A DNA stretch of 64,000 bases from contig JAIMBI010000006.1 in the NCBI GenBank assembly GCA_023565505.1, positions 3,885 to 67,884 on the forward strand, in the 5' to 3' direction. Position numbers and translations under genes: made by a program. The notes beneath the pieces were generated by a model that had not been told where the DNA came from, searched no databases, and worked only from the letters and a program-made list of their open reading frames with translations. The stretch comes from Actinomycetes bacterium (GTDB lineage: Bacteria > Bacillota > Sulfobacillia > Sulfobacillales > JAIMBI01). Shown piece after piece: positions 1,389 to 48,500 of this stretch. Numbering within the stretch: the stretch's first letter is position 1; the number at the start of each line of letters is the position of its first letter.

Positions 1389-2660
<1,272 letters not shown>

Positions 2661-34373: not shown

Positions 34374-34538
34374 CTAGTTGACGTACCTGTCCGGATCCTG
34401 GTCGAAGCGGCGTTTGCACGCCTCGCAACAGAAATAATACGTGGCCCCGCGGTGTTCGCTCCGCGGGGTGGTCGCTTCGACCACCACGGTCATGTGGCAG
34501 ACCGGATCCTCGACGCGGCTTCCGATCGATTCGGCCAT
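34374..34538 (-). CDS. stand-alone YHS-domain protein (54 aa)
   Basis: DPVCHM.V...YYFCCEACKRRF..DP.RY; GGGAGG RBS. Confidence 0.85.
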   Translation of the reverse strand: MAESIGSRVEDPVCHMTVVVEATTPRSEHRGATYYFCCEACKRRFDQDPDRYVN

Positions 34539-34585
34539 TGAAGACCCTCCCTTGTCCCTAAGGACCGCCCGGCGCTCGACCGCTG

Positions 34586-34948: not shown

Positions 34949-34959
34949 GTCGGCGTCGG

Positions 34960-36181
34960 CGGCCTGGAGTGTCCCCCCTCCTCGGTCCGCGTCAGGCCGG
35001 CGTAGGGATCCACGCGCCGGAGCAGGGGCGAGTTGCCCGTCACGAGGACCGAGGACAGCGCCATCGCGGCTCCCGACAGCACCGGGGCGAGGAGGCCCAC
35101 GGCGGCGAAGGGGACCAACACGACGTGGTAGAGAAACGCCCAGGCGAGGTTCTGCCGGATCTTTCCGAGCGTGCGCCGGTTCAGGCGGAGGGGACCGCCG
35201 CAACGCCGCGCGGGTCGCCGTTCATGAGCGTGATCCCGGCCGTGGCCACGGCGCCATCCGTGCCGGTGCCCAGGGCGATGCCCACGCCCGCGGTGGCAAG
35301 CGCCGGGGCGTCGTTGATCCCGTGGCCGACCATGGCCACGCGGTGCCCCGCGGCCTGCAGGGACCGGATGACGCCGGCCTGGTCGCCCGGGAGCACGTCC
35401 GCGATGACATTGGCGGGGCCGATGCCGACGGTGCGCGCGACGGCTTCGGCCACGGGCCGGGCGTCACCTGTGAGGAGATAGACGGTGATCCCGTCCCGGC
35501 AGAGTGCCGCGACGGCCTCGGGCGCGGTGTCCTTGACCGGATCGGTCAGGACCACAACACCAACCAGAGTGCCGTCGGCGGCGACGCCGACGGACGTCTC
35601 TGCCTGGGATCCGCCGGTCGGCTCCGACCTGGGGACCGAGAGAGCGGCCTCGGCCAGGGCTCGGGCGCTCACGATCTGGACGATGTGTCCCTCCACCCGG
35701 GCGCGCACGCCGCGGCCCGGATCCGCTTCGAACGTCTCCACCGAGGGCGGGGCCAGTCCGTGCATCCGGGCATGGGCGACGATGGCCCGGCCGATGGGAT
35801 GCTCTCCAGGAAGGTGCCGGCGACCGGTTCCCAACGGGCTTTGACCACGCCCGGGATGCCCCGGATGCGCTCGGCGATCGCCGGTGCCGCGGCGGCGTCG
35901 GGGATCGATGCCAGCCGGAGCGCGATGGTGTCCGTGACGACCCGGCAACCGATGTCCGCGATGGTCTCCAGGAGGTCGTCCAGCCGCACCTCATGCGGAT
36001 CGACGGTGAGGCGGGCCTTTTCCGTGCCGAAGTTGACCCGGGCTTCGCGAACCCCCGCCAAGTCCGCCACGCCCTTTTCGATCCGCAGCGCGCACGTCGC
36101 GCAGGTCATCCCGGTGATCCCGACCTGAAGCTCGACCAAGCCGTCGGTGGTCCGTTCCACCGCGTTGCTGTTGCCAGCCAC
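34960..36181 (-). pseudogene. copA: copper-translocating P1B-ATPase, internally deleted and frameshifted
   Basis: HMA GMTCATC; then EHPIGRAI, LLTGD, GHGINDAPAL (GDGIND mutated), IRQNLAWAF, AAMALSS in different frames; no TGE, CPC or DKTGT. Confidence 0.88.
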
Positions 36182-36677: not shown

Positions 36678-38078
36678 TCAGTCGGCCGGGTTGCGCTGCG
36701 GGGCTCGGGCCTCCCGAGCCGGTCCGCCTCGGACTTGACGTCCCGGGCGCCGCCACGGCGGGGCCAGAGGGGGCGGCGGACTGTCCTCCAGGGCGGCGCC
36801 CGGGGTGACGGGTACCCAGGGGGATTTCTGCACGCGGACCCGTTGGCTCGGATAGACACTGTGATGACCGATCATGATGAAGGCCGGCACGACGGCGAGC
36901 AGAACCGGAAGGCCCAGGCGGGCCCCGAAGATCTCCATGCCCATGAGGATCGCCGCGATGGGTGCGTTGGCGCCGGCCGCGGTGACGGCCATCATGGCGA
37001 CCGCCGCGGCGTCGCCGGCCGGCAGCCCCAGCGGACGGGCGAGGGTGGCGCCGAGGGTGGCTCCGATGACGAACAGCGGGGTGATGATCCCGCCGCTCAT
37101 GCCGAATCCCAGAGTGACCGCGACACAGACGATCTTCCACCACCACATCCACGGGTTGACGGACAGACCGGCCAGGGCCCGGTTCAGGAGCCCCAGCGAC
37201 AGCCCCCCCGGCGCGCGTCCGACCAGGACGAACAGCCCGAACAGGATGAGGCCGGCGAGGGCCGGCAGCAGCGGCGGCCACCATCCCCGCCGCCGCAGAA
37301 GGCGCTCCGCGACGCGGTGGACGTTTTCGAGGAGCAGCACCAGGATATACGCCGCCAGGCCGGCCGCGGTGCCGAGGGCGACCAGGCGTCCGGCCAGGGC
37401 CATGCCGGTGGGGAAGGGGTGGAAGGACAGGGGGACGAGCTCACGGGGGTAAGACCAGGTCATCCCCAGGGCCTGGGCGCTTTCATAGGCCGTGAACGAC
37501 GCGGCCAAGGACGGGAGCAGCATCTCGTACCACAGGTCCCCGATGGCGAGGACCTCAATGCCGAGGATGGCCCCGGCCACCGGTGTGCCGAACACGGCGG
37601 CGAACCCGGCTCCAATGCCGCAGATGACAATGCGGCGCCGCTGCTCGGGGTGGAGGCGGAGGATGTCGGCCACCGCCGAGGCGACCGCCGCCCCGATTTG
37701 GGCCGACGGGCCCTCCTTGCCCGCTGATCCGCCGGCGGCGATCGTCGTGATCGTCGCCACGGCTTTGACCGGCGCCACCCTCCAGTTGATTTGCCCCGCC
37801 CGGCGGTGGACGGCCCGGATCACGGCCTCGGTGCCGTGCCCGGCGGCATCGGGCGCCCCGTAGTGAATCAGGAGCCCGGTCAGGAGTCCCCCGCCCGGCA
37901 AGGCGGCGGCCAGCGCCCAGAGCGGCCATCCGGCCGTCAACCGGACGGCCCCGAACAGCAGGTCCAGGAAGGCCGTGACGACGACGCCGACCAATGCCCC
38001 GGTGAGCGCTCCGAGCAGCATCCAGGAGACGAGGTGGCGGCCCATGTAGACCGGTTCCCAGAGGTGATGCCACCGCAC
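36678..38078 (-). CDS. CLC-family anion channel/transporter
   Basis: GHGTE, GGSAGKEGP, AGFAAVFGTP, GGIITP.F, ANAPIAA, VYPSQ. Confidence 0.9.
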   Translation of the reverse strand: MRWHHLWEPVYMGRHLVSWMLLGALTGALVGVVVTAFLDLLFGAVRLTAGWPLWALAAALPGGGLLTGLLIHYGAPDAAGHGTEAVIRAVHRRAGQINWRVAPVKAVATITTIAAGGSAGKEGPSAQIGAAVASAVADILRLHPEQRRRIVICGIGAGFAAVFGTPVAGAILGIEVLAIGDLWYEMLLPSLAASFTAYESAQALGMTWSYPRELVPLSFHPFPTGMALAGRLVALGTAAGLAAYILVLLLENVHRVAERLLRRRGWWPPLLPALAGLILFGLFVLVGRAPGGLSLGLLNRALAGLSVNPWMWWWKIVCVAVTLGFGMSGGIITPLFVIGATLGATLARPLGLPAGDAAAVAMMAVTAAGANAPIAAILMGMEIFGARLGLPVLLAVVPAFIMIGHHSVYPSQRVRVQKSPWVPVTPGAALEDSPPPPLAPPWRRPGRQVRGGPAREARAPQRNPAD

Positions 38079-38338
38079 CGCTCATCCCCCTTACGGTCGG
38101 TTGTGGCCCGCCGGTGCGCCCGGTGCGGGCCTGACGGCGAGCAACGGCCCCGCTTGACACGCTTAGACGTCCTTCCCCATTGTCGGGCACGTGGGGCGGC
38201 GGGGCAACCGGCCGGGAGGGACCTGGCCGGGGCTGCCCGACAGCCAAAGGGAAGGCGGCGAAGGCCGGCGTCCGATTCGGCCAGGCCTTGGGCTAGGCCG
38301 GAACGCGGGCCGGCCCGACCGGATCGCGCGAGGGCCGG

Positions 38339-40387
38339 TCAGCGGAGGAAGGCGACGGCCAGCGCGGCCAGGATGCCGCCGACGACGAGAAGCAGGTAGG
38401 TGCCCACCTGTCCGGACTGCACCCGGCGGACGTGCGCCCCGATCCAGCGGGCCGCCGCCAGGAGCGGAAGATAGATATGCTCTTCGACGCGCCAGACGAT
38501 GGTATGGCGGTAGAAGTGAGTGTCGGCCCGCTCCACCCGCTCGCGCTCGAGCCCGTAGAAGGCGGCGAAGGCAAGGCGGATCGGATGGACGAATCCTTCG
38601 GCCGAGAAGCTGGTGCGGGGCCGGTACGATTCCGCTCCGCCGGTCCAGGGGGCCACGAAACGGACGGGATGCCTCCGGTTTCGGGCCCGCACCCCGCCGA
38701 CGAGGAGGACGAGGATGCCCGCCACGACCGTCAGGACGTAGGGATCGCCGACGGAGAATCCCTGGGGGAACAAGATCGTGCCGACCGTTCCAGGGGCTGG
38801 AACCAGATTGGCACCGATGTCCACCAGCGGCTGGACCGCCTGGGGATGGGTGAACGTCGGGGCGAACACGGTGGCGGGGGTGGTCAGGAACGGCCGGAGG
38901 GTTCGGTTGAGCCACGGCAGGAACCACGGCACGGCCGGGCCGGTCAGCACGGGCAGGATCGCCGCGAGCCCCATGGCCCAGGCCCATGCGGGGGGCAAAT
39001 CATGCACCGCGTCGTCCGGCGGGACGTGCTCGGGGCCCAGGTAGATGAACCCGTACCAACGCAGATAGCTGGCGACGCCCAGGCCCACGGCCAGGGCAAG
39101 GCCGCCCCCGGCTGCCAGGAGGGCGAGGTGGGCGGCCTCCTGGCCGGCCGTCGGCCCCAGCGGCTTGAGGAGGGACTCGAGGAGGAGCCACTCGCCGACG
39201 TAGCCGCCGAGCGGCGGAAAGCCCGCGAGCGCGAGCACCGCGACCAGGGCCCAGCGACCGGCCCGTGGGGTCCGGCGGAGCAGGCCGCCCAGCCGATCCA
39301 GCGTCTGGCCGTAGCGCCCCAGCCCGTCCGTGGCGGCAAAGGCCAGGAACTTGGCGCCGGCGTGCATAGCCAGGAGCACCACGGCTCCGTCCAGCGCCAA
39401 GGTTCCGGCGATGCTGCCCGGACTGACCCGGGACGCGATCTGCCAGATGCCGAGAGCAGCAAAGACCAGACCCAACACTTCAAGCGTGGAGTAGGCTAGG
39501 ACCGCTTTGGCCCGGCGGGCCATGACGCTGTACAGCGCGCCGGTCAGCGCGCCCAGCACGCCCAGCACCACCAACGTGATCCCCCACCCCATACCGGGAT
39601 GGGTCAGCCGATCCAGCGCGAGGATCCCGCTCACCGCGAGTGGGGGCAGCAACCCGGAAAACATGCCGGCGACGACGCCTGGCGCCTCGGGTTCGGCCAG
39701 CGGCATCCAGATCATGACCGGGAACAGGCCGGCCTTGACGCCGAACGCCACCAGGCCCAGCACCATGATGACCGTCCCGTCGGCGAGCCGGTGCGGGAGG
39801 TGCGCTGTGACGAAGGCATCGTGGAGGCGAAGGCCGGTGGGGGCGGTCAGCGCGGACAGCCACGCCACGGCCAGGAGCAGCATCATCCCGCCGGCCTCGG
39901 ACAGCGCCAGCAGCACCCAGCCGGTCTGCCAGACCGACCGGCCGCGACGGCTGGTGACCAGCCCGAGGTAGGTGACGGCGGAGACGAACTCCCAGGCCAT
40001 GACCAGCAAGAAACCGTCTCCGCTCCACAGGTAGATCCCGACGCCGGCTTCCAGCGGGAGCAGCGCATAGAGGATCTGGCGCCGCCGACGCTGACCGGCG
40101 GTGCCCAAGGCGGCGGCGGCGAACAACAGTCCCGCGGCCGTGGACCACAGCGGCGCCAGGGGCAACGGGCGCAGGGCCAGCGTCGGCCATGGGGCCGGCA
40201 GGGCCAGCGTGGCGTCTGTCCCCGGGGTGCCGAGAGCCGGAGTCATGAGGAAAAAACCGCCGGCACCCACCAGGAGGGCGGCGACAAGCCAGCCGGTCGC
40301 GCGGCCTCGCCGTTCAGCCAGCCCGGCCGCCGACAGTCCTCCCGCACCCAGAGCGATCCAGAAAATCACCCAGCCCCACGGGCTCAT
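38339..40387 (-). CDS. hyfB: Ehr/Hyf antiporter-like membrane subunit (HyfB-like)
   Basis: AWE, FGVKAGLFP..WMP.A.PEAP, LAYST.E, H...K, FPPLGG..GEW; ATGA overlap with small subunit. Confidence 0.85.
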   Translation of the reverse strand: MSPWGWVIFWIALGAGGLSAAGLAERRGRATGWLVAALLVGAGGFFLMTPALGTPGTDATLALPAPWPTLALRPLPLAPLWSTAAGLLFAAAALGTAGQRRRRQILYALLPLEAGVGIYLWSGDGFLLVMAWEFVSAVTYLGLVTSRRGRSVWQTGWVLLALSEAGGMMLLLAVAWLSALTAPTGLRLHDAFVTAHLPHRLADGTVIMVLGLVAFGVKAGLFPVMIWMPLAEPEAPGVVAGMFSGLLPPLAVSGILALDRLTHPGMGWGITLVVLGVLGALTGALYSVMARRAKAVLAYSTLEVLGLVFAALGIWQIASRVSPGSIAGTLALDGAVVLLAMHAGAKFLAFAATDGLGRYGQTLDRLGGLLRRTPRAGRWALVAVLALAGFPPLGGYVGEWLLLESLLKPLGPTAGQEAAHLALLAAGGGLALAVGLGVASYLRWYGFIYLGPEHVPPDDAVHDLPPAWAWAMGLAAILPVLTGPAVPWFLPWLNRTLRPFLTTPATVFAPTFTHPQAVQPLVDIGANLVPAPGTVGTILFPQGFSVGDPYVLTVVAGILVLLVGGVRARNRRHPVRFVAPWTGGAESYRPRTSFSAEGFVHPIRLAFAAFYGLERERVERADTHFYRHTIVWRVEEHIYLPLLAAARWIGAHVRRVQSGQVGTYLLLVVGGILAALAVAFLR

Positions 40388-40944
40388 TGCTTCGGCACCT
40401 CCACCGCCAGGGGATCCCAGCCGTCTACGGCCTGGAGAAGCCCGCGCAGGATGTCGGCGGGCGTCGGCGGGCACCCGGCGATCCTCACGGTGACCGGAAG
40501 GATCGGGTCCAGACTCCCGAGGACCCCCGGTGCGCCCGCGAAGACCCCGCCGCCGGCGGCACAGGCGCCCACCGCCACGACCGCCTTGGGATGGGGCAGG
40601 GCCTCGTAGACCGCGCGGATGACCGGCGCCATGGCCGCGGTGACGACGCCGGTCACGACCAGGACATCCGCGTGTCGCGGCGAGGGTGTGTAGGAGAAGC
40701 CGTAGCGGCTGAAGTCGTAATCGGGGCCGGCGAGCAGCGCCAACTCCGATTCGCAGCCGTTGCAGGATCCGCCGTCGACGTGACGGAGGGCCAGCGAACG
40801 GCGCAGGGCGGGAGACGGCGGCGGCCCGACGGCAATGACGGCTTCGGCGTGGGTCATCGCGCCCACGGAAGGGTCCGGCTCGGTGGGGAACCCCGTGGTC
40901 GCGGGTCGGTGCAGCAAGTGGCGCACCCAATGCCAGTAATACAC
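40384..40944 (-). CDS. Ehr small subunit (NuoB/HycG-like, 4Fe-4S)
   Basis: GSCNGCE.E, SPRHAD, GACA, GCPP. Confidence 0.92.
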   Translation of the reverse strand: MYYWHWVRHLLHRPATTGFPTEPDPSVGAMTHAEAVIAVGPPPSPALRRSLALRHVDGGSCNGCESELALLAGPDYDFSRYGFSYTPSPRHADVLVVTGVVTAAMAPVIRAVYEALPHPKAVVAVGACAAGGGVFAGAPGVLGSLDPILPVTVRIAGCPPTPADILRGLLQAVDGWDPLAVEVPKQ

Positions 40945-40990
40945 GCGGCATGCCTCCTCCCGTCGTCGGACGTCCGGCCCGGACGGGTCG

Positions 40991-42403
40991 TCATCCGTCC
41001 CAGCCGGCGGCCGACAAGGCGAAGCTGGCGTCGATGATGGGGAAGTCCTGAAGGATGTTGTGGTTGGCCATGGCAGGCGGCACCGCGGGCCAGTTCCGGG
41101 CCGAGGGGGTGGCGACGCCGACATGGCGCACCACGGGCGGAGAACCGGCCAGGACGACCCGCGTGGCCAGGAGGCCCCGGGGGGCCTCCACCACTCCGAT
41201 GCCTTCCGCTCCGTCGGCGGCGTCCACGGCGACGGGGGACGGTGCTCCCCGGGGCTCCCAGACGGCCAGCAACGCGTCCAGTAGGGCCAGCGAGCGCTCC
41301 AACTCGGCCACCTTGACGCGGAACCGCGCCTCGGCGTCGCCCGTCGCGGCCCGTGCCGGCTCTACGGTCCATCGGGCATAAGCCGCGTAGGGTCTTTGGG
41401 TCCGGACGTCGAGCGCGCGGCCCGAGGCGCGTCCCACCGGACCCACGGGGCGCACCGCCTCCAGGTCGGGGGCGGGAATCCGTCCGGCGCCGACCAGACG
41501 GTCGAGGAAGGACGACGTGAGCGACAGGTCGCGGGCGATGCGCGACGCCTCTTCCCGCACGCGCCGGACGGTCGCCGAGGCGGCCCGGAGTCGGCTCCGG
41601 TCGGGAGGGTCGGCCAGCTTGAGCCCCCTCGGCCGCACCACCCCGCGGAGGTAGCGATGACCGACCAGATCGTGGTTGAGGCGGAGGATCCCCTCCCGAA
41701 GGTGCAGGTACTCCATCTGCGGCACCGGAAGCCCCGTCGACACCGCCAGGGCGGCGAGGTCCCCGAGATGGCTGTGGACCCGCTCCAGCTCGGCGACGAC
41801 GCTTCGGCCCACCGGATCTTCGTCGGCGAGACCGAGGGCGTCCTCGACGGCCAGCGCGAACGCCAGGGCGTGGGCCACGGTCGAGGTGCCCGTCCAGCGT
41901 TCGAGGACGTCCGCGGCCTCCTCGAGTCGGCGGCCACGGGACCAGTCGGCCACCCCGCGGAATTTGAAGCCGGGTCGCAGGTCCAGGCGGAGAATCTCGT
42001 CGCCCATCACGGCCAGGTTGTAGCCGAGCGACTCGGCGACGTCCGCCCGGACGGGGCCGAGCGGGAACGTGAAGACCCCCTTGCCGCGGACAGACGGTGC
42101 GGCGGGTGCAGGCGGATCCCAGCGGACCTGGCCCGAACGGCCGAGCCGGCGCTCGGCGGTTTCCACCTCGCGGATACCGTGCGCGGACGGCGACGCCAGT
42201 ACGGTCGCCGCCCCCTCCGCACGCGGGACTGCGAGCCGGGTCAGACCTCCGTCCGGCTCCAGGAACACGGCGACCACCGCGCGGTCGTCCGCGTCCAGGA
42301 GCACAAGCTCCGACGACGCCCGCCGCGCTTCCAGAGCCGGGATCCACCGTTCCGGCGCGACGTGAAGGGTGGCGGCGGGCTTTGCCCGTGTGGTGGTGGA
42401 CAT
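40991..42403 (-). CDS. Ehr large subunit (NuoC/D, HycE-like) lacking NiFe-binding CxxC motifs
   Basis: GPV.A...E, FKFRG, ERWTGTSTVAH in place of RxCxxC, ELERVHSH, EAPRG, TPS..NW, DFPIIDASFALS in place of DPCxxC. Confidence 0.9.
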   Translation of the reverse strand: MSTTTRAKPAATLHVAPERWIPALEARRASSELVLLDADDRAVVAVFLEPDGGLTRLAVPRAEGAATVLASPSAHGIREVETAERRLGRSGQVRWDPPAPAAPSVRGKGVFTFPLGPVRADVAESLGYNLAVMGDEILRLDLRPGFKFRGVADWSRGRRLEEAADVLERWTGTSTVAHALAFALAVEDALGLADEDPVGRSVVAELERVHSHLGDLAALAVSTGLPVPQMEYLHLREGILRLNHDLVGHRYLRGVVRPRGLKLADPPDRSRLRAASATVRRVREEASRIARDLSLTSSFLDRLVGAGRIPAPDLEAVRPVGPVGRASGRALDVRTQRPYAAYARWTVEPARAATGDAEARFRVKVAELERSLALLDALLAVWEPRGAPSPVAVDAADGAEGIGVVEAPRGLLATRVVLAGSPPVVRHVGVATPSARNWPAVPPAMANHNILQDFPIIDASFALSAAGWDG

Positions 42404-42467
42404 GCGAATCCCCCTCTTACGCGACATCGGCCGCTCGCTTGCCGCGGACGCGGTCCGGGCGGCCGGT

Positions 42468-43913
42468 CTAAGCGCTTCCCAGGAGTTCCTGCACCAGATG
42501 CTGCCAGAGTCCGGCTGCCACGACAGGAACCCCGATGCCGCCGAGGACGAACGCGGCGAGCACGAAGCCGGGGAGCAGGAGGGCGAACGGCTCGCTCAGG
42601 CGGGCGGGCCGGGCGGTCGTCCGCGCCTCGACGGGCCCGGGAGTCCACAGCCAAGCGGGTATCCGCCAGGCGACACCGGCGAAGACGACGACCAGCAGGC
42701 CCAGGGCGACCACGTCGGCCAGGCGGTACGCCGGATGCTGGAACCCGCCGACGAGGATGAGCCATTCGCTCCAAAACGGCGCGAAGGGGGGCAGGCCGAC
42801 GATGGAGGCGGCGCCCAGGGCCAAGAGTCCGCCGGTCCAGGGGGTGCGGAGGAGAAGCCCCCGGGCGCCTGTGCGACTGTCCGACGTCCCGTAGAGCAGC
42901 CGGACGGTTCCGGCGTTGTGGAACAACAGGGCCTTGTTCACGCCGTGGGTCCAGATGTGGAACATGGCCCCGACCAGCGCGATCCCGCCGAACCCCATGC
43001 CCAGGCTGACCAGACCCAGATGCTCGATGCTCGAGTAGGCCCATAGGCGCTTGAGGTCGGTCTGGGTGACGGCGAAGGCGGCGGCCACCACCAGCGAGGC
43101 GAGACCCAGGAGGATGAAGCCCTCCCGGATGGCCGACCCCGCGGCCGTGGGCGCGACGAGGTGGAACAGCCGCCACATGATCAGCGCCGCGCCCGCCAGT
43201 TTGAGACCGGAAAGGAGGGCCGAGACGGGCGCCGGCGCTTCGCCGTGCGCGTCCGGGAGCCAGGTGTGAAACGGAGCGAGCCCGGCCTTGGTGGCGTAGC
43301 CGACCAGCGCCAAAAGCCCTCCGACGAAGACCGACGTCCCCACCGCGGTGCCCGCCGGCAGGGGGGGCGGGAACGTGGACGACCAACGGTCGAGCGGGAT
43401 GCCCAGTCCGCTCAACACGAGGACCGTCCCCACCAGGGCGGCGAATCCGCCGGTCTCGGTGACCACCAGGTACTTCCATGCCGCCTCGGTCGCACGGCGG
43501 TCCTCGGACACGCCGGTCAGGAAGACGGAGGACAGGGTGGCGACCTCCACCGCGACCCAGAGGCCGAGGAAGTTGGTCAAAAGCGCCAGCGCCAGCAGGG
43601 AGGCGACGAACAAGAGCAGTCCGGCGGCGAAGGCGCGTACGCGCGAGGGCTGCCAGTGATGGGCCGCGGCTTCGCGGCGCAGGTACGGGACGGCATACCA
43701 AAGGCTCAAGGCCGCCAGGAGCGCCGAGATCCCGTAGAACCACGCTGCCAGGGGATCCGGTGCGGACCACCATCCGGCCACCAGAAGGGCCAGCGAGACG
43801 GCCAGACCAGCTGCGGCCAGCCCTACGACGGCGCCGACCAGGCGTTCGGGCACCAGCCGCGCCAGCACGGCGGCCGCCACCAGGGCGCCGGGAAGCAAGA
43901 CGGCCGTCGTCAT
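42468..43913 (-). CDS. hyfF: Ehr/Hyf antiporter-like membrane subunit (HyfF-like)
   Basis: EAAWKY, GYATKAGLAP.HTWLPDAH.EAP, KRLWAYSSIEH, GLPPF..FWSE. Confidence 0.9.
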   Translation of the reverse strand: MTTAVLLPGALVAAAVLARLVPERLVGAVVGLAAAGLAVSLALLVAGWWSAPDPLAAWFYGISALLAALSLWYAVPYLRREAAAHHWQPSRVRAFAAGLLLFVASLLALALLTNFLGLWVAVEVATLSSVFLTGVSEDRRATEAAWKYLVVTETGGFAALVGTVLVLSGLGIPLDRWSSTFPPPLPAGTAVGTSVFVGGLLALVGYATKAGLAPFHTWLPDAHGEAPAPVSALLSGLKLAGAALIMWRLFHLVAPTAAGSAIREGFILLGLASLVVAAAFAVTQTDLKRLWAYSSIEHLGLVSLGMGFGGIALVGAMFHIWTHGVNKALLFHNAGTVRLLYGTSDSRTGARGLLLRTPWTGGLLALGAASIVGLPPFAPFWSEWLILVGGFQHPAYRLADVVALGLLVVVFAGVAWRIPAWLWTPGPVEARTTARPARLSEPFALLLPGFVLAAFVLGGIGVPVVAAGLWQHLVQELLGSA

Positions 43914-44542
43914 CCGACCAACTCCTTCAGGGACCGCGCATCGGTGGTATGACCGAGGTCAGCCACCCGGCGGAGGGCCTCCCGAAGCACCCAGGCCAAG
44001 CCGAGCGTCACCGCCAGGGCCAAGCCGTCCAGCACCGGGCCCTGGCGGCCGCCGACGACCAGCGCGAAGGAGGCCGCTTGGGTGTCGAGGCCCAGGAGAG
44101 CCCATGCCATGATCCACGTCTCATGGCGGACCACCAGGCTCAGGAGTCCCAGGAGGAAGGCGGCGAGCACCACGCCGGCGACTACGGGGTGCGGCGGACC
44201 CAGGCGGGGCACGAGCAGGACGGCGGCAACGGTGAGGGCGACACCGAACGCAAGCGCGGTGGCCATACCGAACGGCCCGCGGGCGCCGTAGTCGCGGCGG
44301 ACCCGGTCGGGTACGGCGCTGGTCCACCAGGGCACCACGAGGCCCTTCACGACGAGGACCGCGACGCCCAGGGCGTCAAGTTCCGGGTGCCCCCCCGCCC
44401 AGCCGGCGGCAAAAGCCAGCCCCGCTTCCCCCAGGGCCTGGAGGCGATAGGCGGCCCGGGCGCCGGGAAACGTCCGAATCATGACCACCAGGCCCGCCCC
44501 GAGCCAGATGGTGGTCGCCAGGAATCGCTCGAGCATCTCCAT
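43910..44542 (-). CDS. hyfE: Ehr/Hyf membrane subunit (HyfE-like)
   Basis: Multiple TMs, KGLVVP motif, C-terminal L..L.G; position between hyfC and hyfF homologs. Confidence 0.75.
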   Translation of the reverse strand: MEMLERFLATTIWLGAGLVVMIRTFPGARAAYRLQALGEAGLAFAAGWAGGHPELDALGVAVLVVKGLVVPWWTSAVPDRVRRDYGARGPFGMATALAFGVALTVAAVLLVPRLGPPHPVVAGVVLAAFLLGLLSLVVRHETWIMAWALLGLDTQAASFALVVGGRQGPVLDGLALAVTLGLAWVLREALRRVADLGHTTDARSLKELVG

Positions 44543-44594
44543 GGAATGGCACCTCCTTCGGCGACAGCTTGTCCACCCTTCACGGCGCGCCGCG

Positions 44595-45539
44595 TCAGAC
44601 CCCCAGGCCGGCCGCCAGCGCGCCGAGCGACGCCAGCGCGATCGCCGCAGCGAGGAAGTCCACGTTCCGAATCAACCGCAGCTTGGCGAACCCGGCCTCC
44701 AGGGTCACCAGGAACAGGCCGAGGGCGAGGAGTTTGGCGGCCACCAGCAGGATGGCGCGTGCAACGGCGACGGCCTCCAGGGAGGACGCTAGCCCCCAGG
44801 GAGTCAGCAGCACGTTGACGAGGACGGTCGCAAGCACGGTGAACTTCATCCACCCGCCCCACTCGTAGAGGGCGAGATCCGGCCCGCTGGCCTCGAACGT
44901 CCGGGCCGGGTCGATCAGCGACAATTCCTGAGTCGAGGAGGGATTGTCGACGGGGATGCGCCCTGTCTCGGCGATGAGGAGCAGGAACCAGCCTGCGGCC
45001 AGCAGGACGTGGGCCGGCGTGACGAGCCAACGCGGGCCGGCGAGCGTGGCGTTGACGACGAACGGGATGGTCGCACCCGCCACGGTGGCTGCCGTGAACA
45101 CCAGCGCCAGGGCGAGCGGTTCGGTGAACGTCCCGATGAGCCGGATCCGGCTCACGCCGAGGGCAGGGTACACGCTGCCGCTGTCCAGGGCGGCGAAGAG
45201 GAGCGCCAAGCCACCGGCGGAGAGGATCATCCCCCCGCCCAGCATGTCCCCCATCCACGCGAACGGAAGGGGAAAGGCCGTCAGCACCGGGATGAGCAGG
45301 GTGACGAGGACCGGGGCCACGAAGTACGCCACCGGCGCCCACGCCGAGACGAACGTGGTCTCGGTGGTGCGCACGGTCTCCTTGTGCCACCATTTCCGGA
45401 GATCTCGGTAGGGCTGCCATACGGGCGGCCCGTGGCGCCCCGCCAGCCGTGCCCGCCAGCGTTCCATGACGCCGCGGTAGAGGGGGGAGAAGGCGAGCAC
45501 GAACAAGACCTGAAGCGCCTGCGCCGCGTACGGGCTCAC
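44595..45539 (-). CDS. hyfC: Ehr/Hyf NuoH-like membrane subunit (HyfC-like)
   Basis: GRHGPPVWQPYRDL.K, ALDSGS, AETGRIPVDN, E.SG.DLAL, AKLRL. Confidence 0.9.
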   Translation of the reverse strand: MSPYAAQALQVLFVLAFSPLYRGVMERWRARLAGRHGPPVWQPYRDLRKWWHKETVRTTETTFVSAWAPVAYFVAPVLVTLLIPVLTAFPLPFAWMGDMLGGGMILSAGGLALLFAALDSGSVYPALGVSRIRLIGTFTEPLALALVFTAATVAGATIPFVVNATLAGPRWLVTPAHVLLAAGWFLLLIAETGRIPVDNPSSTQELSLIDPARTFEASGPDLALYEWGGWMKFTVLATVLVNVLLTPWGLASSLEAVAVARAILLVAAKLLALGLFLVTLEAGFAKLRLIRNVDFLAAAIALASLGALAAGLGV

Positions 45540-45581
45540 GCCGATACCTCCTCGGCCGGTTAATCTGGGATACGCGCGAAC

Positions 45582-45615
45582 AAAAAAACTCCCGACCGCC
45601 TCTCGGCGTCAGGAG
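45582..45615 (-). terminator. riboswitch expression-platform terminator
   Basis: CTCCTGAC-GCCGAGAGGCG-GTCGGGAG-TTTTTTT; its 5' arm overlaps the 3' end of the aptamer. Confidence 0.85.
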
Positions 45616-45675
45616 TCATTAACCGCGTGACGCGGTGGTTTCGGACCCGAGGTCCGCGGCGGAATCCATCGCCTG
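45609..45675 (-). ncRNA. fluoride (crcB-motif) riboswitch
   Basis: GGCGATGGATTCCGCC ... ACCGCG-TCA-CGCGGT-TAATGACTCCTG matches GGCGAUGGnGUUCGCC...UAAUGACnCCU; one pseudoknot mismatch and an extra hairpin. Confidence 0.8.
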
Positions 45676-45713
45676 CGAGGGCGCCTCCGACGGCGCCAAG
45701 CACTCTGGAGCCT

Positions 45714-45744
45714 AATATAGCAGACAGACCGGGCCGTGCGTCAA
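45714..45744 (-). promoter_or_regulatory. promoter of riboswitch/Ehr operon
   Basis: Extended -10 TGCTATATT; TTGACG with a non-optimal 19-nt spacer. Confidence 0.55.
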
Positions 45745-45884
45745 TCGGGCGGGGCGACGGTCCGGACCTTGGGACCGGGGGAACGCTGGCCCGGAGTCAG
45801 GGGGCGACGACGACGGCCGGGACCGCGAGGATGTCCCCCGCGCGGGGAGGAGGTCGAGCCCGGGGGCGGGCCGAACCGGCCGCG

Positions 45885-46820
45885 TCACCGGACCAGCCCC
45901 AGGACCGTGAGGCAGGCGGGGACCGTCAGCGCGCTGGCGACGGTGGACAGCGTGATGGTCTGGGCCACCTGTTCCGGGGCCGCCTCGAACTCGCGCGACA
46001 GGATGATGGCGTTGATTGCCACGGGCGTCGCAATCTGAAGGACCAAGGCCCGGGCGGCGGCCGGCGGAAGGGGGAGCACGGCCGCCAGCCCCGCGGCGAC
46101 GGCGGGCATGACCACGAGCCTGAGCCCGGTGCTCCACCACGCCACGGCGCTGCGAATGTCCCGGAGCCGCCAGTCTGCGATGGTGGCGCCGAGCACCACC
46201 AGGACGGTGGGCGAATAGGCGTTGCCCGCGATGGTGGTCGCCGTGGCCAGGCCTTGGGGGACCGGCCAATGCAGCAGGTCGACCAGCGCCGCGGCCACCA
46301 TGGCCCACATGGCAGGCAGACGGACGACCCGCCGCCACGCGGCGCGGGGATCCATGCTGCCCCGGCTGGCCAGATAGGCCCCGACGGTGTTGACGGCGAC
46401 GATCTGGGTCAGGACGTAGATGACGGCAGCCTGGAGACTTCGGGGCCCCAAGGTGAACGCGACCAGGGGTAGGCCCAGGTTTGAGGAGTTGGAGAAGGCC
46501 GTCGTGAGGTCCAGGGCCGCCTGCGCGCCCTGGTCCGCGTGCAGCGCCCGGCCGACGCCGCGGCTCAGGAGCACCGCCGCCAGCACCACACCGGCGGCGA
46601 AGACCACGACGGCGGTGAGGTCGTGCAGCGACAGTCCCCGTTGGGTCAAAGCGTGGAAGACGAGCCCGGGCGTGAAGACGTACAGCGCCGTCCGCGACAT
46701 GGCGGTCGAGTCGATGCGGAGCCGCCGCCGCAACAGGACCCCGGCCACCACGAACGCCGCCACCAGCAGGAGCGTCTGGCCGGCGAACCCGAGTTCGGCA
46801 AGCACGCGACCGGCGGACAC
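45885..46820 (-). CDS. AEC (auxin efflux carrier) family transporter
   Basis: LYVFTPGLVF, FSNSSNLGLP, P..L.VLG, RL..MP, A.P.AIN; about 10 TMs; AAGGAGGA RBS. Confidence 0.9.
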   Translation of the reverse strand: MSAGRVLAELGFAGQTLLLVAAFVVAGVLLRRRLRIDSTAMSRTALYVFTPGLVFHALTQRGLSLHDLTAVVVFAAGVVLAAVLLSRGVGRALHADQGAQAALDLTTAFSNSSNLGLPLVAFTLGPRSLQAAVIYVLTQIVAVNTVGAYLASRGSMDPRAAWRRVVRLPAMWAMVAAALVDLLHWPVPQGLATATTIAGNAYSPTVLVVLGATIADWRLRDIRSAVAWWSTGLRLVVMPAVAAGLAAVLPLPPAAARALVLQIATPVAINAIILSREFEAAPEQVAQTITLSTVASALTVPACLTVLGLVR

Positions 46821-46849
46821 GGCGGTTCCTCCTTGTATCTAGGTACTAG

Positions 46850-47230
46850 AGATTGACACTATTAGCCGTCGTCCTTGGGGAAAGGATGGGGGTCCGGGGG
46901 AAGGGAAACCCCTTGTGGATTGTGGGGATAACCTGGATAACCCCATTCCCCTCCGCTCGCCAGGACCGACGTCGTTTCCCGTCGAATCGGGCTGGTAGCC
47001 CGGTGCGGGGTCAGGCCTTTCCTCCTTGCGCCCGAGCGCTGCGAAAGATTGCCGCCCCGAGCCGGCGGGGTTGATCGCCGACACCCACGGTGCGCCCCCG
47101 GCGGAGTCACGGAGAGCAGCAGCTCCGTGCGTGCCGTCTCCCCGGGACCGAAGCGCCGATCCGTGCGCAAGGCTGCGGCGGCCCCGCCGGCCGACGGGAC
47201 CCCCTTGCCGGGGCACAACCCCTGGGGAAG
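46850..47230 (+). ncRNA. candidate bridge RNA in IS110 left non-coding end
   Basis: About 400 nt non-coding with many hairpins; TTCCTCCTTG at 47019-47028 is identical to the left flank 46826-46835. Confidence 0.55.
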
Positions 47231-47243
47231 GGAGGTGAGAGTC

Positions 47244-48500
47244 ATGTCCGAATTGCTGGTGGGGATTGACGTCAGCCGGGACACCCATCACGTGGCCTTC
47301 ACGGATGCCACCGCCACCCATCGCTGGGGCCGCCTGACCGTGCCCAACGACGCCGGAGGCGCCCTCCAGCTGGCCCAGGCGATTCACGACCAGGCCGCCG
47401 CCCATGGGTGCGACACCGTCCGCATCGGCTGCGAGGCCACGGGCGTCTACGCCTGGCATCTGGCGCTCTGGCTGAGCCAGCCCACGGACCCGCCCCGGCC
47501 CTGGGCGGTCTACCTGCTCCAGCCGCGCACGGTGCACCGGTACGCAGCCACGTTCGCGAGTAAACGGGCCAAGACGGACCGCCAGGACCCCTGGCGCATC
47601 GCCGAGGTGCTGAGCCATCCGGCGTGGTTGCCCCGGCCCTTCCAGTTGGCCGAGCGCACCATCGCTCTGCAGCGCCTGACCCGGCATCGGCACCACCTGG
47701 TGCGCCAGCTCACGCGCCTCAAGAACTACGCCGCGAGCTACCTGTTCTTGAAGGCCAACGGCTTGGTCTGCCATCCGCCGTGGTCCGACCCGTGGGGCGC
47801 GGCGGCTGCCGCTGTCCTCCTCCAGTACCAGACGGTGGAGGATATCGCCGCCGCCCCCTTGGCGGAGCTGGTCGCCTGCCTGCAACGCGGGGCCCGCGGC
47901 CATCTGGCCGACCCGGACCGGGTGGCCCAGGCGGTCCGCCAAGCGGCCCGGGCTTCGTTCCGGTTGCCGGAGGTCCTCAAGGAGCCGGTGCATCAGATCC
48001 TGAGTTGGACCTTGCAGGACATCCGGTATCTCGAGGCCCAGATCAAAGCCGTCGATCGACGGATTGCGCGCGAACCGGCGGCCCGCACGAACCGGCTGCT
48101 GACCGTCCCGGGGATCGGGCCGGTGTTTGCGGCCGGCATCTTGGCCGAAATCGGGGACATTACCTTCTTCCCCGATGATGACCAAGTGGCCCAGTTCGCG
48201 GGCTTGACGTGGCCGCCCGCCGCGTCGGGGCAGTACACGCCCGAACATCCGCCATTGGCCCGGACCGGCAACGCCTATCTCCGCCACTACCTGGTCGAAG
48301 CTGCGAACAGCGTCCGACGGCACGACGCCACATACGCAGCGTACTATGAACGCAAGCTGGCCGAGAGTACGCCGCCCGCACACCATCGGGCGTTGGTGCT
48401 CACCGCACGCAAACTGACACGCTTGGTGACCGCTCTGCTGCGCGATGACCGGGCGTACGACCCGACGTACCGCTCTGTGCGGCGGCGTCGTCACGGTTAA
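47244..48500 (+). CDS. IS110-family transposase/recombinase
   Basis: GIDVS (D), CEATG (E), KTDRQD (D,D), TVPGIG, AEIGDI..F, FAGL.....SG (Ser), GNAYLR, ARKL; GGAGGTGA RBS. Confidence 0.96.
   Translation: MSELLVGIDVSRDTHHVAFTDATATHRWGRLTVPNDAGGALQLAQAIHDQAAAHGCDTVRIGCEATGVYAWHLALWLSQPTDPPRPWAVYLLQPRTVHRYAATFASKRAKTDRQDPWRIAEVLSHPAWLPRPFQLAERTIALQRLTRHRHHLVRQLTRLKNYAASYLFLKANGLVCHPPWSDPWGAAAAAVLLQYQTVEDIAAAPLAELVACLQRGARGHLADPDRVAQAVRQAARASFRLPEVLKEPVHQILSWTLQDIRYLEAQIKAVDRRIAREPAARTNRLLTVPGIGPVFAAGILAEIGDITFFPDDDQVAQFAGLTWPPAASGQYTPEHPPLARTGNAYLRHYLVEAANSVRRHDATYAAYYERKLAESTPPAHHRALVLTARKLTRLVTALLRDDRAYDPTYRSVRRRRHG

What the first reader, a model, noticed from the sequence alone, without database searches (positions are those of the whole stretch)
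38339..45720. Fluoride riboswitch switches on a six-gene NiFe-less Ehr ion-pumping complex
Seen: a crcB-type aptamer whose 3' strand is the 5' arm of an intrinsic terminator (ON-switch logic), directly ahead of hyfC-hyfE-hyfF-large-small-hyfB homologs. The large subunit lacks both CxxC motifs, the small subunit keeps its 4Fe-4S cysteines, and there is no electron-input module or maturase nearby. Known: Ehr complexes have no established function; formate-hydrogenlyase-like genes are among those reported beside fluoride riboswitches, without a mechanism I know of; HF entry is severe at low pH. Inference: a redox-driven pump that exports F- or restores pH/membrane potential under fluoride stress, working with the CLC. 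The aptamer has one pseudoknot mismatch (GGAUU/ACUCC) and an extra hairpin.
Basis: partly seen in the sequence, partly recalled or inferred. Interest (0 to 1): 0.8.

Follow-up and report, generated by a model that had tools for sequence, protein, structure and literature searches.

The report
Fluoride-switched nickel-free hydrogenase-like membrane complex
A fluoride-sensing RNA switch turns on six genes for a membrane complex that looks like a hydrogenase but cannot bind nickel-iron, followed by a fluoride-exporter-like gene, which gives an enzyme family of unknown function a testable role in surviving fluoride.

Summary
A fluoride aptamer lies at 45603-45682 (-). It scores 32.8 bits, just under Rfam's cut-off of 34, so the default scan missed it. 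Its pseudoknot 3' strand is the 5' arm of a terminator. Six genes follow: NuoH-like, HyfE-like, HyfF-like, a large subunit with no cysteines, a small subunit with four cluster cysteines, and HyfB-like. A CLC gene comes next.

The pairing is conserved: 48 of 52 testable related loci carry the aptamer ahead of the operon. Rfam's own model confirmed 16 of 17 loci retested. None of 62 large subunits has cysteine at a NiFe-ligand position. The extra hairpin covaries at 5 of 5 pairs, and the pseudoknot mismatch is clade-wide.

The association has been in print since 2010 as "formate hydrogen lyase". My searches found no paper calling these genes NiFe-less. This scan noted the same pairing in at least 8 other genomes.

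The most likely function is ion translocation for pH and membrane-potential homeostasis under HF stress; this is inferred, not shown. The CLC tail is specific to this lineage.

The parts
45714..45744 (-). Possible promoter, read by eye: TTGACG, 19-nt spacer, TATATT
   Evidence: Read from the sequence. It does not pass the scanner's rule of a 16-18 nt spacer; one search found 0 promoter-like sites.
45603..45682 (-). Fluoride riboswitch aptamer (crcB motif), a variant with an inserted hairpin and one pseudoknot mismatch
   Evidence: RF01734 at 32.8 bits (GA 34), E 2.8e-7. Custom model R1 gives 72.9 bits at 45611-45675; R1 was trained on an alignment that includes this sequence. Covariation is shown.
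45642..45656 (-). Extra hairpin inserted between P1 and P2 (CGGAC-CUCGG-GUCCG)
   Evidence: Treated as an insertion by Rfam. All 5 of its pairs show changes on both sides across 41 aptamers, with 86.3% of cells paired.
45582..45617 (-). Intrinsic terminator whose 5' arm includes the pseudoknot 3' strand (ACUCC), followed by a run of seven U
   Evidence: dG -21.0 kcal/mol; present in the MFE and centroid folds. Not found by the consensus scanner.
44595..45539 (-). NuoH/HyfC/HycD-like membrane subunit (314 aa, GTG start after a GAGGAGG ribosome-binding site)
   Evidence: PF00146, E 4.6e-25. Conserved AE.G..P.DNP....E and EWGG.MK motifs across 54 sequences.
43910..44542 (-). HyfE-like small membrane subunit (210 aa)
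   Evidence: No Pfam family even at E<=1. Family profile against PDB gave 0 hits. Atlas clusters named hydrogenase-4 component E score 0.92-0.94, and the structural TM is 0.91. This is a lead only.
42468..43913 (-). HyfF / NuoM-N-like antiporter-like subunit (481 aa); its start overlaps the previous stop
   Evidence: PF00361, E 1.2e-51. Best NCBIfam match is hydrogenase 4 subunit F, below its cut-off. TM5 Glu, TM7 Lys and TM12 Glu motifs are at least 93% conserved; the helix labels are recalled.
40991..42427 (-). Large subunit (NuoC/D- and HycE-like) with no cysteines; all four NiFe ligands replaced (T, S, S, L)
   Evidence: PF00346. Zero Cys. Best solved relative is HycE 7Z0S_E at 174 bits. 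0 of 62 family members have Cys at the four positions.
40384..40944 (-). Small subunit (NuoB/HycG/MbhJ-like) with four [4Fe-4S] cysteines. The start is uncertain: GTG at 40944 or ATG at 40857.
   Evidence: PF01058, E 9.5e-28. MbhJ 6CFW_J at 119 bits with the Cys aligned. The four Cys are kept in 59, 57, 61 and 61 of 61 sequences.
38339..40387 (-). HyfB / NuoL-like antiporter-like subunit (682 aa); ATGA overlap with the small subunit's stop
   Evidence: PF00361. NCBIfam hydrogenase 4 subunit B matches over 12-666 of 669 model positions at 256.6 bits, below its cut-off. Start read from the sequence.
36678..38078 (-). CLC-family transporter, closest to the solved CLC-F F-/H+ antiporter. It is the only CLC in this genome, which has no crcB.
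   Evidence: PF00654, E 2.4e-64. 6D0J at 130.4 bits, E 9.8e-37, against about 51 bits for ClcA. Genome scans. The 260-nt gap holds no aptamer and no terminator-like or promoter-like site.

Best explanation
Regulation. When cytoplasmic fluoride rises, the aptamer folds, its pseudoknot captures the ACUCC strand, the terminator cannot form, and transcription runs into the six-gene operon. Transcription probably continues into the CLC gene.

Product. The operon encodes a minimal complex-I / group-4-hydrogenase-like membrane complex. It has a NuoH-like subunit, a HyfE-like subunit, two antiporter-like subunits, a NuoCD-like large subunit and a NuoB-like small subunit. It cannot make or use H2 because the NiFe site is gone.

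Proposed function. I propose that it moves protons (or Na+) out of the cell. HF that diffuses in at low external pH releases H+ and F- inside, and export of F- by a CLC-F-type F-/H+ exchanger brings in more H+. A fluoride-induced proton extruder would restore cytoplasmic pH and the gradient that the exporter consumes. The retained [4Fe-4S] cluster suggests that the driving force is a redox reaction, with donor and acceptor unknown.

Status of each step. Shown: the parts, their conservation and their linkage to the aptamer. Inferred: the fluoride response of this variant aptamer, ion translocation, its direction, the energy source and co-transcription of the CLC.
For: Regulation:
- Aptamer plus overlapping terminator.
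- A second aptamer in the same genome has the same design.
- 48 of 52 testable related loci have an aptamer no more than 465 nt upstream of the first gene on the same strand.
- Rfam at its gathering score confirmed 8 of 8 distant loci and 8 of 9 close loci.
- Both tandem operons in L047 have their own aptamer.
- 30 of 41 leaders have a hairpin anchored on the pseudoknot strand followed by a U-run.

Not a hydrogenase:
- 0 of 62 large subunits have Cys at the four ligand positions.
- The operon has no HycB, HycF or FdhF genes.

Still a working machine:
- Intact ORFs and the same gene order in all loci long enough to show it.
- Full-length large-subunit matches (at least 459 bits) in 53 of 210 genomes of the class.
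- Conserved charged motifs in the NuoH-like and both antiporter-like subunits, and cluster cysteines in 57-61 of 61 small subunits.

Fluoride context:
- Neighbouring aptamers control crcB, MutS-like and DUF6062 genes.
- Pyrophosphatase, crcB or CLC genes follow the operon in some loci.

Physiology from the literature:
- Weak-acid accumulation of HF, cytoplasmic acidification and riboswitch-linked Na+/H+ antiporters (PMC11139923 sections 10 and 13).
- Sulfobacillus is inhibited by sub-millimolar to millimolar fluoride (PMC12831704 abstract and section 19).
Against: - There is no expression or transport data; no RNA run holds this DNA.
- The window's aptamer is below Rfam's gathering score, and 24 of 41 aptamers, all in one clade, have an unpaired fourth pseudoknot pair. 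Fluoride binding by this variant is therefore untested.
- No electron donor or acceptor module is encoded nearby. The large subunit also lacks the complex-I quinone-site Asp-Tyr, which aligns to T-G, so there is no obvious redox substrate.
- The leader's fold z-score is only -1.48.
- Three loci have no aptamer (L055, L057, L061) and one has only a sub-threshold match (L058, 28.1 bits).
- The CLC tail is not a conserved part of the system.
- The related genomes are kin, so the locus counts are not independent events.
Confidence: 0.55

Rival explanations
1. It is what the literature label says: a formate hydrogenlyase or hydrogenase-4 that consumes protons by making H2 from formate when fluoride acidifies the cell.
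For: Sources name the homologues 'hydrogenase-3 subunit E' or 'formate hydrogenlyase subunit 5'. The best solved relative of the large subunit is E. coli HycE. Reviews read the association as a shift to fermentative metabolism. The genome has HypD and a true NiFe hydrogenase elsewhere.
Against: The large subunit has no cysteine at all, and 0 of 62 family members have Cys at any of the four ligand positions. The operon holds no formate dehydrogenase and no HycB/HyfA- or HycF/HyfH-like ferredoxin subunits.
Confidence: 0.02
2. It is a redox-independent, Mrp-like secondary cation/proton antiporter. The antiporter-like subunits exchange Na+ or K+ for H+ using existing gradients, and the large and small subunits are a structural or regulatory cap whose cluster has no electron-transfer role.
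For: There is no electron-input module and no NiFe-type or quinone-type site. Na+/H+ antiporters are the second most common class of riboswitch-linked genes. Two PF00361 subunits carry conserved Lys and Glu motifs.
Against: The four cluster cysteines are kept in 57-61 of 61 small subunits. Many large-subunit residues around the former active site are invariant, including H186 in 62 of 62 and S468 in 62 of 62. This argues for a site under selection. Pfam hits on the six ORFs show no Mrp-specific small subunits.
Confidence: 0.22
3. The complex itself handles fluoride, for example as a primary, energy-coupled F-/HF extrusion device, or as a partner that physically energises the exporter. The Ser/Thr-lined former NiFe pocket or a membrane channel would serve as the anion site.
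For: Linkage to the fluoride aptamer is very tight across two deep clades. The four former ligand positions are conserved as T/S, S, S and L rather than drifting. This genome has no crcB and only one CLC.
Against: The homologous modules in solved relatives move protons or cations, not anions (established knowledge of complex I, MBH and Mrp; recalled). Separate exporters (crcB, CLC) lie in or beside several loci. No anion-binding motif was identified here.
Confidence: 0.08
4. The variant aptamer in this clade (pseudoknot mismatch plus inserted hairpin) no longer senses fluoride, or senses another ligand, so this operon's link to fluoride is historical only.
For: The window's score is below Rfam's cut-off. 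24 of 41 aptamers have an unpaired fourth pseudoknot pair, with a linked change of the first P2 pair.
Against: 23 columns are invariant across 41 aptamers. 8 of 9 clade members pass Rfam's cut-off. Sister clades with canonical aptamers control the same operon. The same loci hold crcB, MutS-like and pyrophosphatase genes. The terminator design is kept.
Confidence: 0.08

Closest known systems
Fluoride-riboswitch-associated 'formate hydrogen lyase' genes (Weinberg et al. 2010, PMC2864571 section 9, passages read; Baker et al. 2012, as cited in PMC11139923 and not held here)
   Same: A crcB-motif aptamer in the 5' UTR with an overlapping terminator, ahead of Hyf/Hyc-like genes. This is almost certainly the same gene class.
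   Different: The published label implies H2 production from formate. Here, and in all 62 relatives examined, the NiFe ligands are absent, and there are no formate dehydrogenase or ferredoxin-like subunits. My searches found no paper that says so. Supplementary files that list the genes could not be seen.
Ehr (energy-converting hydrogenase-related) complexes, e.g. Geobacter sulfurreducens GSU0739-45 (PMC6349859 section 8 and PMC7894505 section 8, passages read; Marreiros et al. 2013, recalled and as cited there)
   Same: [quoted passage not shown] It has NuoL-like, HyfE-like, large and small subunits plus antiporter-like subunits, and its function is unknown.
   Different: This subfamily is under fluoride-riboswitch control and lies in fluoride-response islands. 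I did not build a tree with Geobacter-type Ehr, so whether it is the same clade is untested. No FDH/NuoEF partner like the one proposed for Margulisbacteria is nearby.
E. coli formate hydrogenlyase (Hyc, PDB 7Z0S) and hydrogenase-4 (Hyf)
   Same: Best solved relatives are HycE at 174 bits and HycG at 112 bits. The gene order resembles hyfC-E-F-G-I with hyfB at the end.
   Different: No NiFe cysteines and no HycB/HycF/FdhF or HyfA/D/H/J equivalents. NCBIfam scores are far below the equivalog cut-offs.
Pyrococcus MBH (6CFW) and MBS (6U8Y) and respiratory complex I (e.g. Thermus Nqo4/Nqo6)
   Same: The same core of NuoB-, NuoD- and NuoH-like subunits plus antiporter-like subunits. The small-subunit cluster cysteines align.
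   Different: No NuoI/MbhN-like two-cluster subunit and no Mrp-type small subunits. The Nqo4 quinone-site Asp-Tyr aligns to T-G.
CLC-F F-/H+ antiporter (Enterococcus casseliflavus, PDB 6D0J)
   Same: It is the best solved relative of the downstream CLC, at 130 bits against about 51 for ClcA. The gating Glu (GKEGP versus GREGV) and the Thr of TPLF are kept.
   Different: Positions aligned to Eca M79 and E318 are T and I; the functional labels of these residues are recalled. Close orthologues lack their own aptamer.

Membership tests
Fluoride riboswitch (Rfam RF01734, crcB motif) | Score at or above the curated gathering score (34 bits) | tested here: not met
   32.8 bits, E 2.8e-7, full model 1-64; not listed at the gathering threshold. 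Relatives pass: 8 of 8 and 8 of 9 loci.
Fluoride riboswitch (Rfam RF01734, crcB motif) | P1 and P2 helices and the conserved core nucleotides | tested here: met
   Alignment to the consensus. 23 invariant columns in 41 aptamers. P1 is 91.5% and P2 93.7% paired, with compensatory changes.
Fluoride riboswitch (Rfam RF01734, crcB motif) | Five-pair pseudoknot between the P1 loop and the 3' tail | tested here: inconclusive
   Four of five pairs form in the window. The fourth is U opposite C, and this position is unpaired in 24 of 41 aptamers, all in one clade.
Fluoride riboswitch (Rfam RF01734, crcB motif) | Expression platform that competes with the aptamer (ON switch) | tested here: met
   The terminator's 5' arm contains ACUCC; dG -21 kcal/mol, run of seven U. 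30 of 41 leaders pass my rule. The consensus scanner found none.
Fluoride riboswitch (Rfam RF01734, crcB motif) | Binds fluoride and changes expression | not testable with these tools
   Needs in-line probing or a reporter. No RNA runs are available.
Ehr (energy-converting hydrogenase-related) complex | Large and small subunits homologous to group 4 NiFe hydrogenases | tested here: met
   PF00346 and PF01058. HycE, MbhL, HycG and MbhJ are the best solved relatives.
Ehr (energy-converting hydrogenase-related) complex | Lacks the residues that coordinate Ni and Fe (definition in PMC6349859 section 8) | tested here: met
   No Cys in the protein. 0 of 62 relatives have Cys at the four positions.
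Ehr (energy-converting hydrogenase-related) complex | Mrp/complex-I antiporter-like membrane subunits, plus NuoH-like and HyfE-like subunits | tested here: met
   Two PF00361 subunits and one PF00146 subunit. The HyfE-like identity rests only on Atlas look-alikes.
Ehr (energy-converting hydrogenase-related) complex | Same clade as the type Ehr (Geobacter ehrABCDLS) | not tested
Formate hydrogenlyase / hydrogenase-4 (group 4a NiFe) | Two CxxC pairs that ligate NiFe in the large subunit | tested here: not met
Formate hydrogenlyase / hydrogenase-4 (group 4a NiFe) | Formate dehydrogenase and HycB/HycF-type iron-sulfur subunits in the complex | tested here: not met
   The operon has only six genes, none of these kinds. 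The same six are found in the related loci.
Respiratory complex I (quinone-reducing) | Quinone-site Asp-Tyr in the NuoD homologue, and a NuoI plus NuoEFG electron path | tested here: not met
   Thermus Nqo4 RMDYLHSFAH aligns to RvtgTstvaH. There are no such genes in the operon or its neighbourhood. The residue roles are recalled.
CLC-F fluoride/proton antiporter | Closer to CLC-F than to chloride CLCs | tested here: met
   130.4 bits to 6D0J against about 51 bits to ClcA.
CLC-F fluoride/proton antiporter | Signature residues of the solved CLC-F (gating Glu, Met79, Glu318, Thr320; labels recalled) | tested here: inconclusive
   The Glu and Thr are kept. The positions aligned to Met79 and Glu318 are T and I.

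The most novel reading that the evidence does not exclude
This riboswitch-linked clade of NiFe-less complexes is a dedicated fluoride-defence machine and not a general ion pump. The retained iron-sulfur cluster and the conserved Ser/Thr-lined former NiFe pocket would drive or gate extrusion of HF/F- itself, or directly energise the adjacent exporter. That would be a primary, redox-coupled anion-defence system built on the complex-I scaffold, and the first assigned function for any Ehr complex.
Probability: 0.1. Interest if true: 0.9.

Novelty: new variant of a known kind. Interest (0 to 1): 0.62.

Why it matters
Ehr complexes are widespread relatives of complex I and membrane-bound hydrogenases with no established function. 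Separately, the "formate hydrogen lyase" entry in the fluoride regulon has been read as a metabolic shift.

If these are the same thing, and the complex cannot be a hydrogenase, two consequences follow:
- The fluoride regulon contains an unrecognised ion-translocating machine.
- An orphan family gets a clean experimental handle: add fluoride at low pH and watch the operon.

The enrichment in Sulfobacillus and Alicyclobacillus records fits the acute fluoride sensitivity of acidophiles used in bioleaching. There is also a practical annotation point. The clade-specific aptamer, with its inserted hairpin and pseudoknot mismatch, scores near or below Rfam's cut-off, so it can be missed, as it was in this window.

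Tried and rejected
- RNA evidence: no RNA holder is listed for this stretch. The DNA holders are hot-spring metagenome runs from one study, plus small shares elsewhere that I did not lay.
- The consensus promoter/terminator scanner found nothing in the leader or in the gap between the operon and the CLC.
- HyfE-like subunit: no Pfam family at E<=1, and the family profile against PDB gave 0 hits at E<=10.
- A second aptamer ahead of the CLC: none found.
- Aptamers at close CLC orthologues: none within the 1.5-kb flanks. Of 29 loci, only two distant homologues (L097, L099) have one.
- Divergent aptamers in the four aptamer-less loci: only L058, at 28.1 bits.
- My tblastn small-subunit query was out of frame, so its S hits are void. 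It was redone.
- One search hit the time limit and was rerun.
- The careful tree did not finish; the quick tree is reported.
- Baker et al. 2012 was not held under the PMC id I recalled.
- I fetched own-family loci to look at operon tails. They turned out to be the same records as L042-L047 and L051, already annotated. L109 was not analysed.
- I considered a complex prediction for the large and small subunits and rejected it.

Full report
**Observation**

The default Rfam scan of the window lists only five tRNAs. A permissive scan of 45400-46000 finds the fluoride aptamer RF01734 at 45603-45682 on the minus strand. It covers the full model (1-64 of 64) and scores 32.8 bits against a gathering score of 34, with E 2.8e-7. 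The shortfall comes from a 14-nt insertion that Rfam treats as unaligned.

In a scan of the organism's own genome (a 3.12-Mb assembly, 97.6% complete, 6.62% contamination) this hit ranks second at E 3.4e-7. A 43.1-bit aptamer on contig C29 ranks first, and the next hit scores only 16.3 bits.

Directly 3' of the aptamer lies GACUCCUGACGCC-GAGA-GGCGGUCGGGAGU followed by seven U. RNAfold gives this hairpin -21.0 kcal/mol. The whole leader's minimum-free-energy and centroid folds show P1, the inserted hairpin, P2 and this terminator. The leader's overall z-score against shuffles is only -1.48, and the simple consensus scanner found no terminator or promoter here. The terminator's 5' arm contains ACUCC, the 3' strand of the aptamer's pseudoknot, so ligand-bound folding and termination exclude each other. 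This is the ON-switch logic already described for crcB RNAs. The C29 aptamer has the same insertion and the same terminator design.

**Genes**

All genes are on the minus strand.

| Coordinates | Product |
|---|---|
| 44595-45539 | NuoH/HyfC-like (PF00146) |
| 43910-44542 | 210-aa membrane protein, no Pfam family |
| 42468-43913 | HyfF-like antiporter-like subunit (PF00361) |
| 40991-42427 | NuoD/HycE-like large subunit (PF00346) |
| 40384 to about 40944 | NuoB-like small subunit (PF01058) |
| 38339-40387 | HyfB-like antiporter-like subunit (PF00361) |
| 36678-38078 | CLC, after a 260-nt gap |

- Two junctions are ATGA overlaps.
- Every NCBIfam match is far below its equivalog cut-off.
- The 210-aa protein stays without a family at E<=1, and a family profile finds nothing in PDB. 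Atlas look-alikes named hydrogenase-4 component E score 0.92-0.94, with a structural TM of 0.91. I treat this identity as a lead.
- The large subunit has no cysteine at all. The small subunit has CxxC, GAC and GCPP.
- Against solved structures, the large-subunit family profile is closest to E. coli HycE (174 bits), Thermus Nqo4 (156 bits) and Pyrococcus MbhL (153 bits).
- HycE's RVCGICGFAH aligns to RvtgTstvaH, and Nqo4's RMDYLHSFAH aligns to the same stretch. The site is therefore neither a NiFe site nor the complex-I quinone site.
- The small subunit's four cysteines align with those of MbhJ and HycG.
- No electron-input or maturation genes are nearby. The neighbours are an AEC-family transporter, an IS110 transposase, an IclR regulator, a glycosyltransferase, a two-component pair, VIT1 and COX1 upstream. 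Downstream lie the CLC, HAD/YHS fragments and an EAL-GGDEF protein.
- HypD and a true NiFe large subunit lie on contig C7.

**Is the pairing more than chance?**

Homologues of the large subunit are named 'hydrogenase-3 subunit E' or 'formate hydrogenlyase subunit 5' by their sources. The named ones come from Sulfobacillus and uncultured Bacillota. An alignment of 32 of them (A1) already lacks the cysteine motifs.

With A1 I fetched 61 loci from the species-level genome collection. The gene order H-E-F-L-S-B holds wherever the contig is long enough.

A pattern pre-scan placed aptamer-like motifs 3.0-3.5 kb upstream of the large-subunit gene, with one at 4.9 kb (L045), on the same strand in 40 loci. 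I built a covariance model R1 from 41 aptamers and searched all loci. Results:
- 52 loci contain the operon's 5' end.
- 48 of these have an aptamer no more than 465 nt upstream of the first gene.
- L055, L057 and L061 have none. L058 has only a sub-threshold match (28.1 bits by Rfam).
- 9 loci are cut too short to test.

Because R1 was trained on these sequences, I checked independently with Rfam at its own gathering score. All 8 distant loci tested pass, at 34.5-52.9 bits. 8 of 9 loci from the window's clade pass, at 35.7-41.7 bits.

L047 carries two such operons in tandem, each with its own aptamer. L053 and L013 have tandem aptamers.

By a crude rule, 30 of 41 leaders have a hairpin that starts in the pseudoknot strand and ends in a U-run. 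Several others place a GGAGG ribosome-binding site where ACUCC could mask it.

**The RNA variant**

On the MAFFT alignment, which was not fitted to any structure:
- 87.9% of cells pair, against 31-51% when partners are slid.
- The covariation score is 0.283 against 0.097 in shuffles (0 of 500 reach it).
- The inserted hairpin has changes on both sides at all 5 pairs.
- The first P2 pair is A:U in 19 sequences, G:C in 17, U:A in 4 and G:U in 1.
- The fourth pseudoknot pair is G:C in 17 sequences and unpaired in 24.

A quick maximum-likelihood tree of 62 large subunits was built; the careful search did not finish. It splits the family into a 15-row clade and a 47-row clade.
- The 15-row clade (Alicyclobacillus, Ammonifex, Desulfosporosinus, Sporolactobacillus) has mostly short canonical aptamers; L060's is longer. 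One 4-row subclade lacks aptamers.
- In the 47-row clade, every testable leader has the hairpin insertion.
- Within the 47-row clade, a 28-row clade (support 99) holds all 24 mismatch aptamers, including the window and Sulfobacillus.

Whether they change fluoride affinity is untested.

**Is the protein machine under selection?**

Across 62 large subunits, the four former ligand positions read as follows:

| Position | Residues |
|---|---|
| 1 | T 46, S 14, A 1, G 1 |
| 2 | S 58, A 3, T 1 |
| 3 | S 62 |
| 4 | L 60, Y 2 |

None of them is cysteine, and the histidine that follows the first motif is invariant. The small subunit's cysteines are kept in 59, 57, 61 and 61 of 61 sequences.

The NuoH-like subunit keeps AE.G..P.DNP....E...ID..R, EWGG.MK and KLRL.R. 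Both antiporter-like subunits keep the TM7-type Lys motif and a TM12-type Glu (the helix labels are recalled).

In the class that holds this genome, 75 of 210 genomes match the profile at E<=1e-60, and 53 have a full-length match of at least 459 bits. These include 7 of 7 other genomes of the window's family and 30 of 36 of the sister family.

**Fluoride context**

Of 54 loci with sequence beyond the last gene, the same-strand downstream ORFs are:
- DUF190 plus two crcB genes in L007.
- A CLC in L050.
- S1-pyrophosphatase fusions in L049, L055, L057 and L058. Three of these four are the loci without a passing aptamer.
- MFS fusions in L042 and L044.
- Unrelated or unassigned ORFs elsewhere.

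Other aptamers in these loci control crcB (L013), MutS-domain-V proteins (L028, L033, L041, L054) and a DUF6062 protein (L048). These are the gene classes listed for the crcB motif in 2010.

**The CLC**

- This genome has no crcB match and exactly one CLC, the one after the operon.
- Its best solved relative is the CLC-F F-/H+ antiporter 6D0J, at 130.4 bits against about 51 for ClcA. The gating Glu and the TPLF Thr are kept, but T and I sit at the positions aligned to Eca M79 and E318.
- The gap before it holds no aptamer and no terminator-like or promoter-like site. Co-transcription is therefore plausible but not shown.
- Orthologues at 58-74% identity occur in 23 of 36 sister-family genomes and in 0 of 7 other genomes of the window's family.
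- Of 29 CLC loci, only two distant homologues have an aptamer within the 1.5-kb flanks. Only L082 has the operon's last gene directly upstream.

The CLC tail is therefore lineage-specific.

The window's large subunit groups with the sister family and not with its own family's copies, which are L042-L047 and L051. A PurK-like gene from the same window is closest to its own family and f2 (51-54%) and mostly lower to the sister family (38-51%). An IS110 transposase lies just upstream. Lateral acquisition of the operon-CLC unit is a reasonable reading. Mis-binning is not excluded, and single-gene identities are weak evidence.

**What is known**

- Weinberg et al. 2010 listed 'genes encoding formate hydrogen lyase' among crcB-motif targets and noted the overlapping terminators (passages read).
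[quoted passage not shown] It also describes weak-acid accumulation of HF, cytoplasmic acidification and riboswitch-linked Na+/H+ antiporters (passages read).
- Ehr complexes are defined as relatives of group 4 NiFe hydrogenases that lack the Ni/Fe-coordinating residues. They are suspected to couple redox reactions to charge translocation (passages read).
- The Geobacter cluster has NuoL-like, HyfE-like, large and small subunits, and no studied role.
- Six searches found no paper that connects the two or states that the riboswitch-linked genes lack the NiFe site. Baker et al. 2012 and all supplementary files could not be read, so this absence is provisional.
- This scan has recorded the same pairing in at least 8 other genomes. 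My results agree with those notes. In this clade, unlike what one note reports for its own set, crcB is rarely at the operon's tail.

**Mechanism**

Shown:
- The switch architecture.
- The subunit set.
- The loss of the NiFe site and retention of the cluster cysteines.
- Conservation of the membrane charge motifs.
- The linkage to fluoride aptamers and fluoride-regulon genes across two deep clades.

Inferred: fluoride turns the operon on, and the complex translocates H+ or Na+ outward to offset the proton load. That load comes from HF entry and from F-/H+ exchange (the 1:1 stoichiometry of CLC-F is recalled). The energy probably comes from a redox reaction through the small subunit's cluster.

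The main rival is a redox-independent Mrp-like antiporter. The published hydrogenlyase reading is contradicted by the sequence. Direct handling of fluoride is not excluded but has no support.

**Verdict**

This is a new variant of a known kind. The known kind is the fluoride-riboswitch 'formate hydrogen lyase' class, which here cannot be a hydrogenlyase. In this window it has a clade-specific aptamer variant and a lineage-specific CLC tail.

Noticed in passing
L001 (G000 contig C29:32688-35767); aptamer at locus 1509-1574 (-), ORF 755-1465 (-): The genome's second, stronger fluoride aptamer (43.1 bits) has the same hairpin insertion and terminator design. It controls a 236-aa cysteine-rich protein with no Pfam family, followed by a methyltransferase-like ORF. 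The protein shows weak co-linear similarity (28% over 143 aa, pairwise E 0.003) to a riboswitch-controlled DUF6062 protein in L048.
   Followed up: partly
L054 (Alicyclobacillus sp. ALC3 plasmid, NZ_CP066785.1:18162-39253): Eight R1 aptamer matches fall within 21 kb of a plasmid. They stand ahead of a MutS-domain-V protein, a sigma-70 factor, an unassigned 412-aa ORF and a lone NuoC/D-like large subunit. This looks like a plasmid-borne fluoride-response island.
   Followed up: partly
L031:13618-14908, L033:10351-11534, L036:13609-15452, L037:10108-11956, L039:6618-8461: A second, canonical fluoride aptamer follows directly after the operon. Behind it is a 340-605-aa ORF with no Pfam family (best E 0.009-0.07). 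I did not check whether these ORFs are real or related to each other.
   Followed up: partly
L047:6563-20905: Two complete operons of this type lie in tandem, one from each deep clade (46% and 37% identity to the window's large subunit). Each has its own fluoride aptamer. Several genomes of the class have two or three large-subunit matches.
   Followed up: partly
L053:6190-6517 and L013:6473-6836: Tandem fluoride aptamers, both above Rfam's cut-off, precede the operon in Alicyclobacillus mengziensis and Sulfobacillus harzensis.
   Followed up: no
window 36678-48500: The operon-CLC unit may have been acquired laterally. The large subunit groups with the sister family's copies and not with its own family's. 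The CLC is absent from 7 of 7 other family genomes. An IS110-family transposase (47049-48500, +) lies just upstream. PurK from the same window is closest to its own family.
   Followed up: partly
window 34374-36128: A 255-aa HAD-domain ORF that looks like part of a P-type ATPase lies beside two YHS-domain ORFs, with many overlapping frames. It may be a fragmented metal-ATPase gene.
   Followed up: no
window 32583-34208 (-): A 541-aa protein with EAL, protoglobin-like and GGDEF domains, which could be a gas- or redox-sensing c-di-GMP enzyme. c-di-GMP riboswitches also occur in related loci L053, L009 and L016.
   Followed up: no
L055, L057, L058, L061: One tight subclade (support 99) has lost a detectable leader aptamer; only L058 has a match, at 28.1 bits. 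In L055, L057 and L058 an S1-domain-pyrophosphatase fusion follows directly after the operon (L061 is cut short), so regulation there may have changed.
   Followed up: partly
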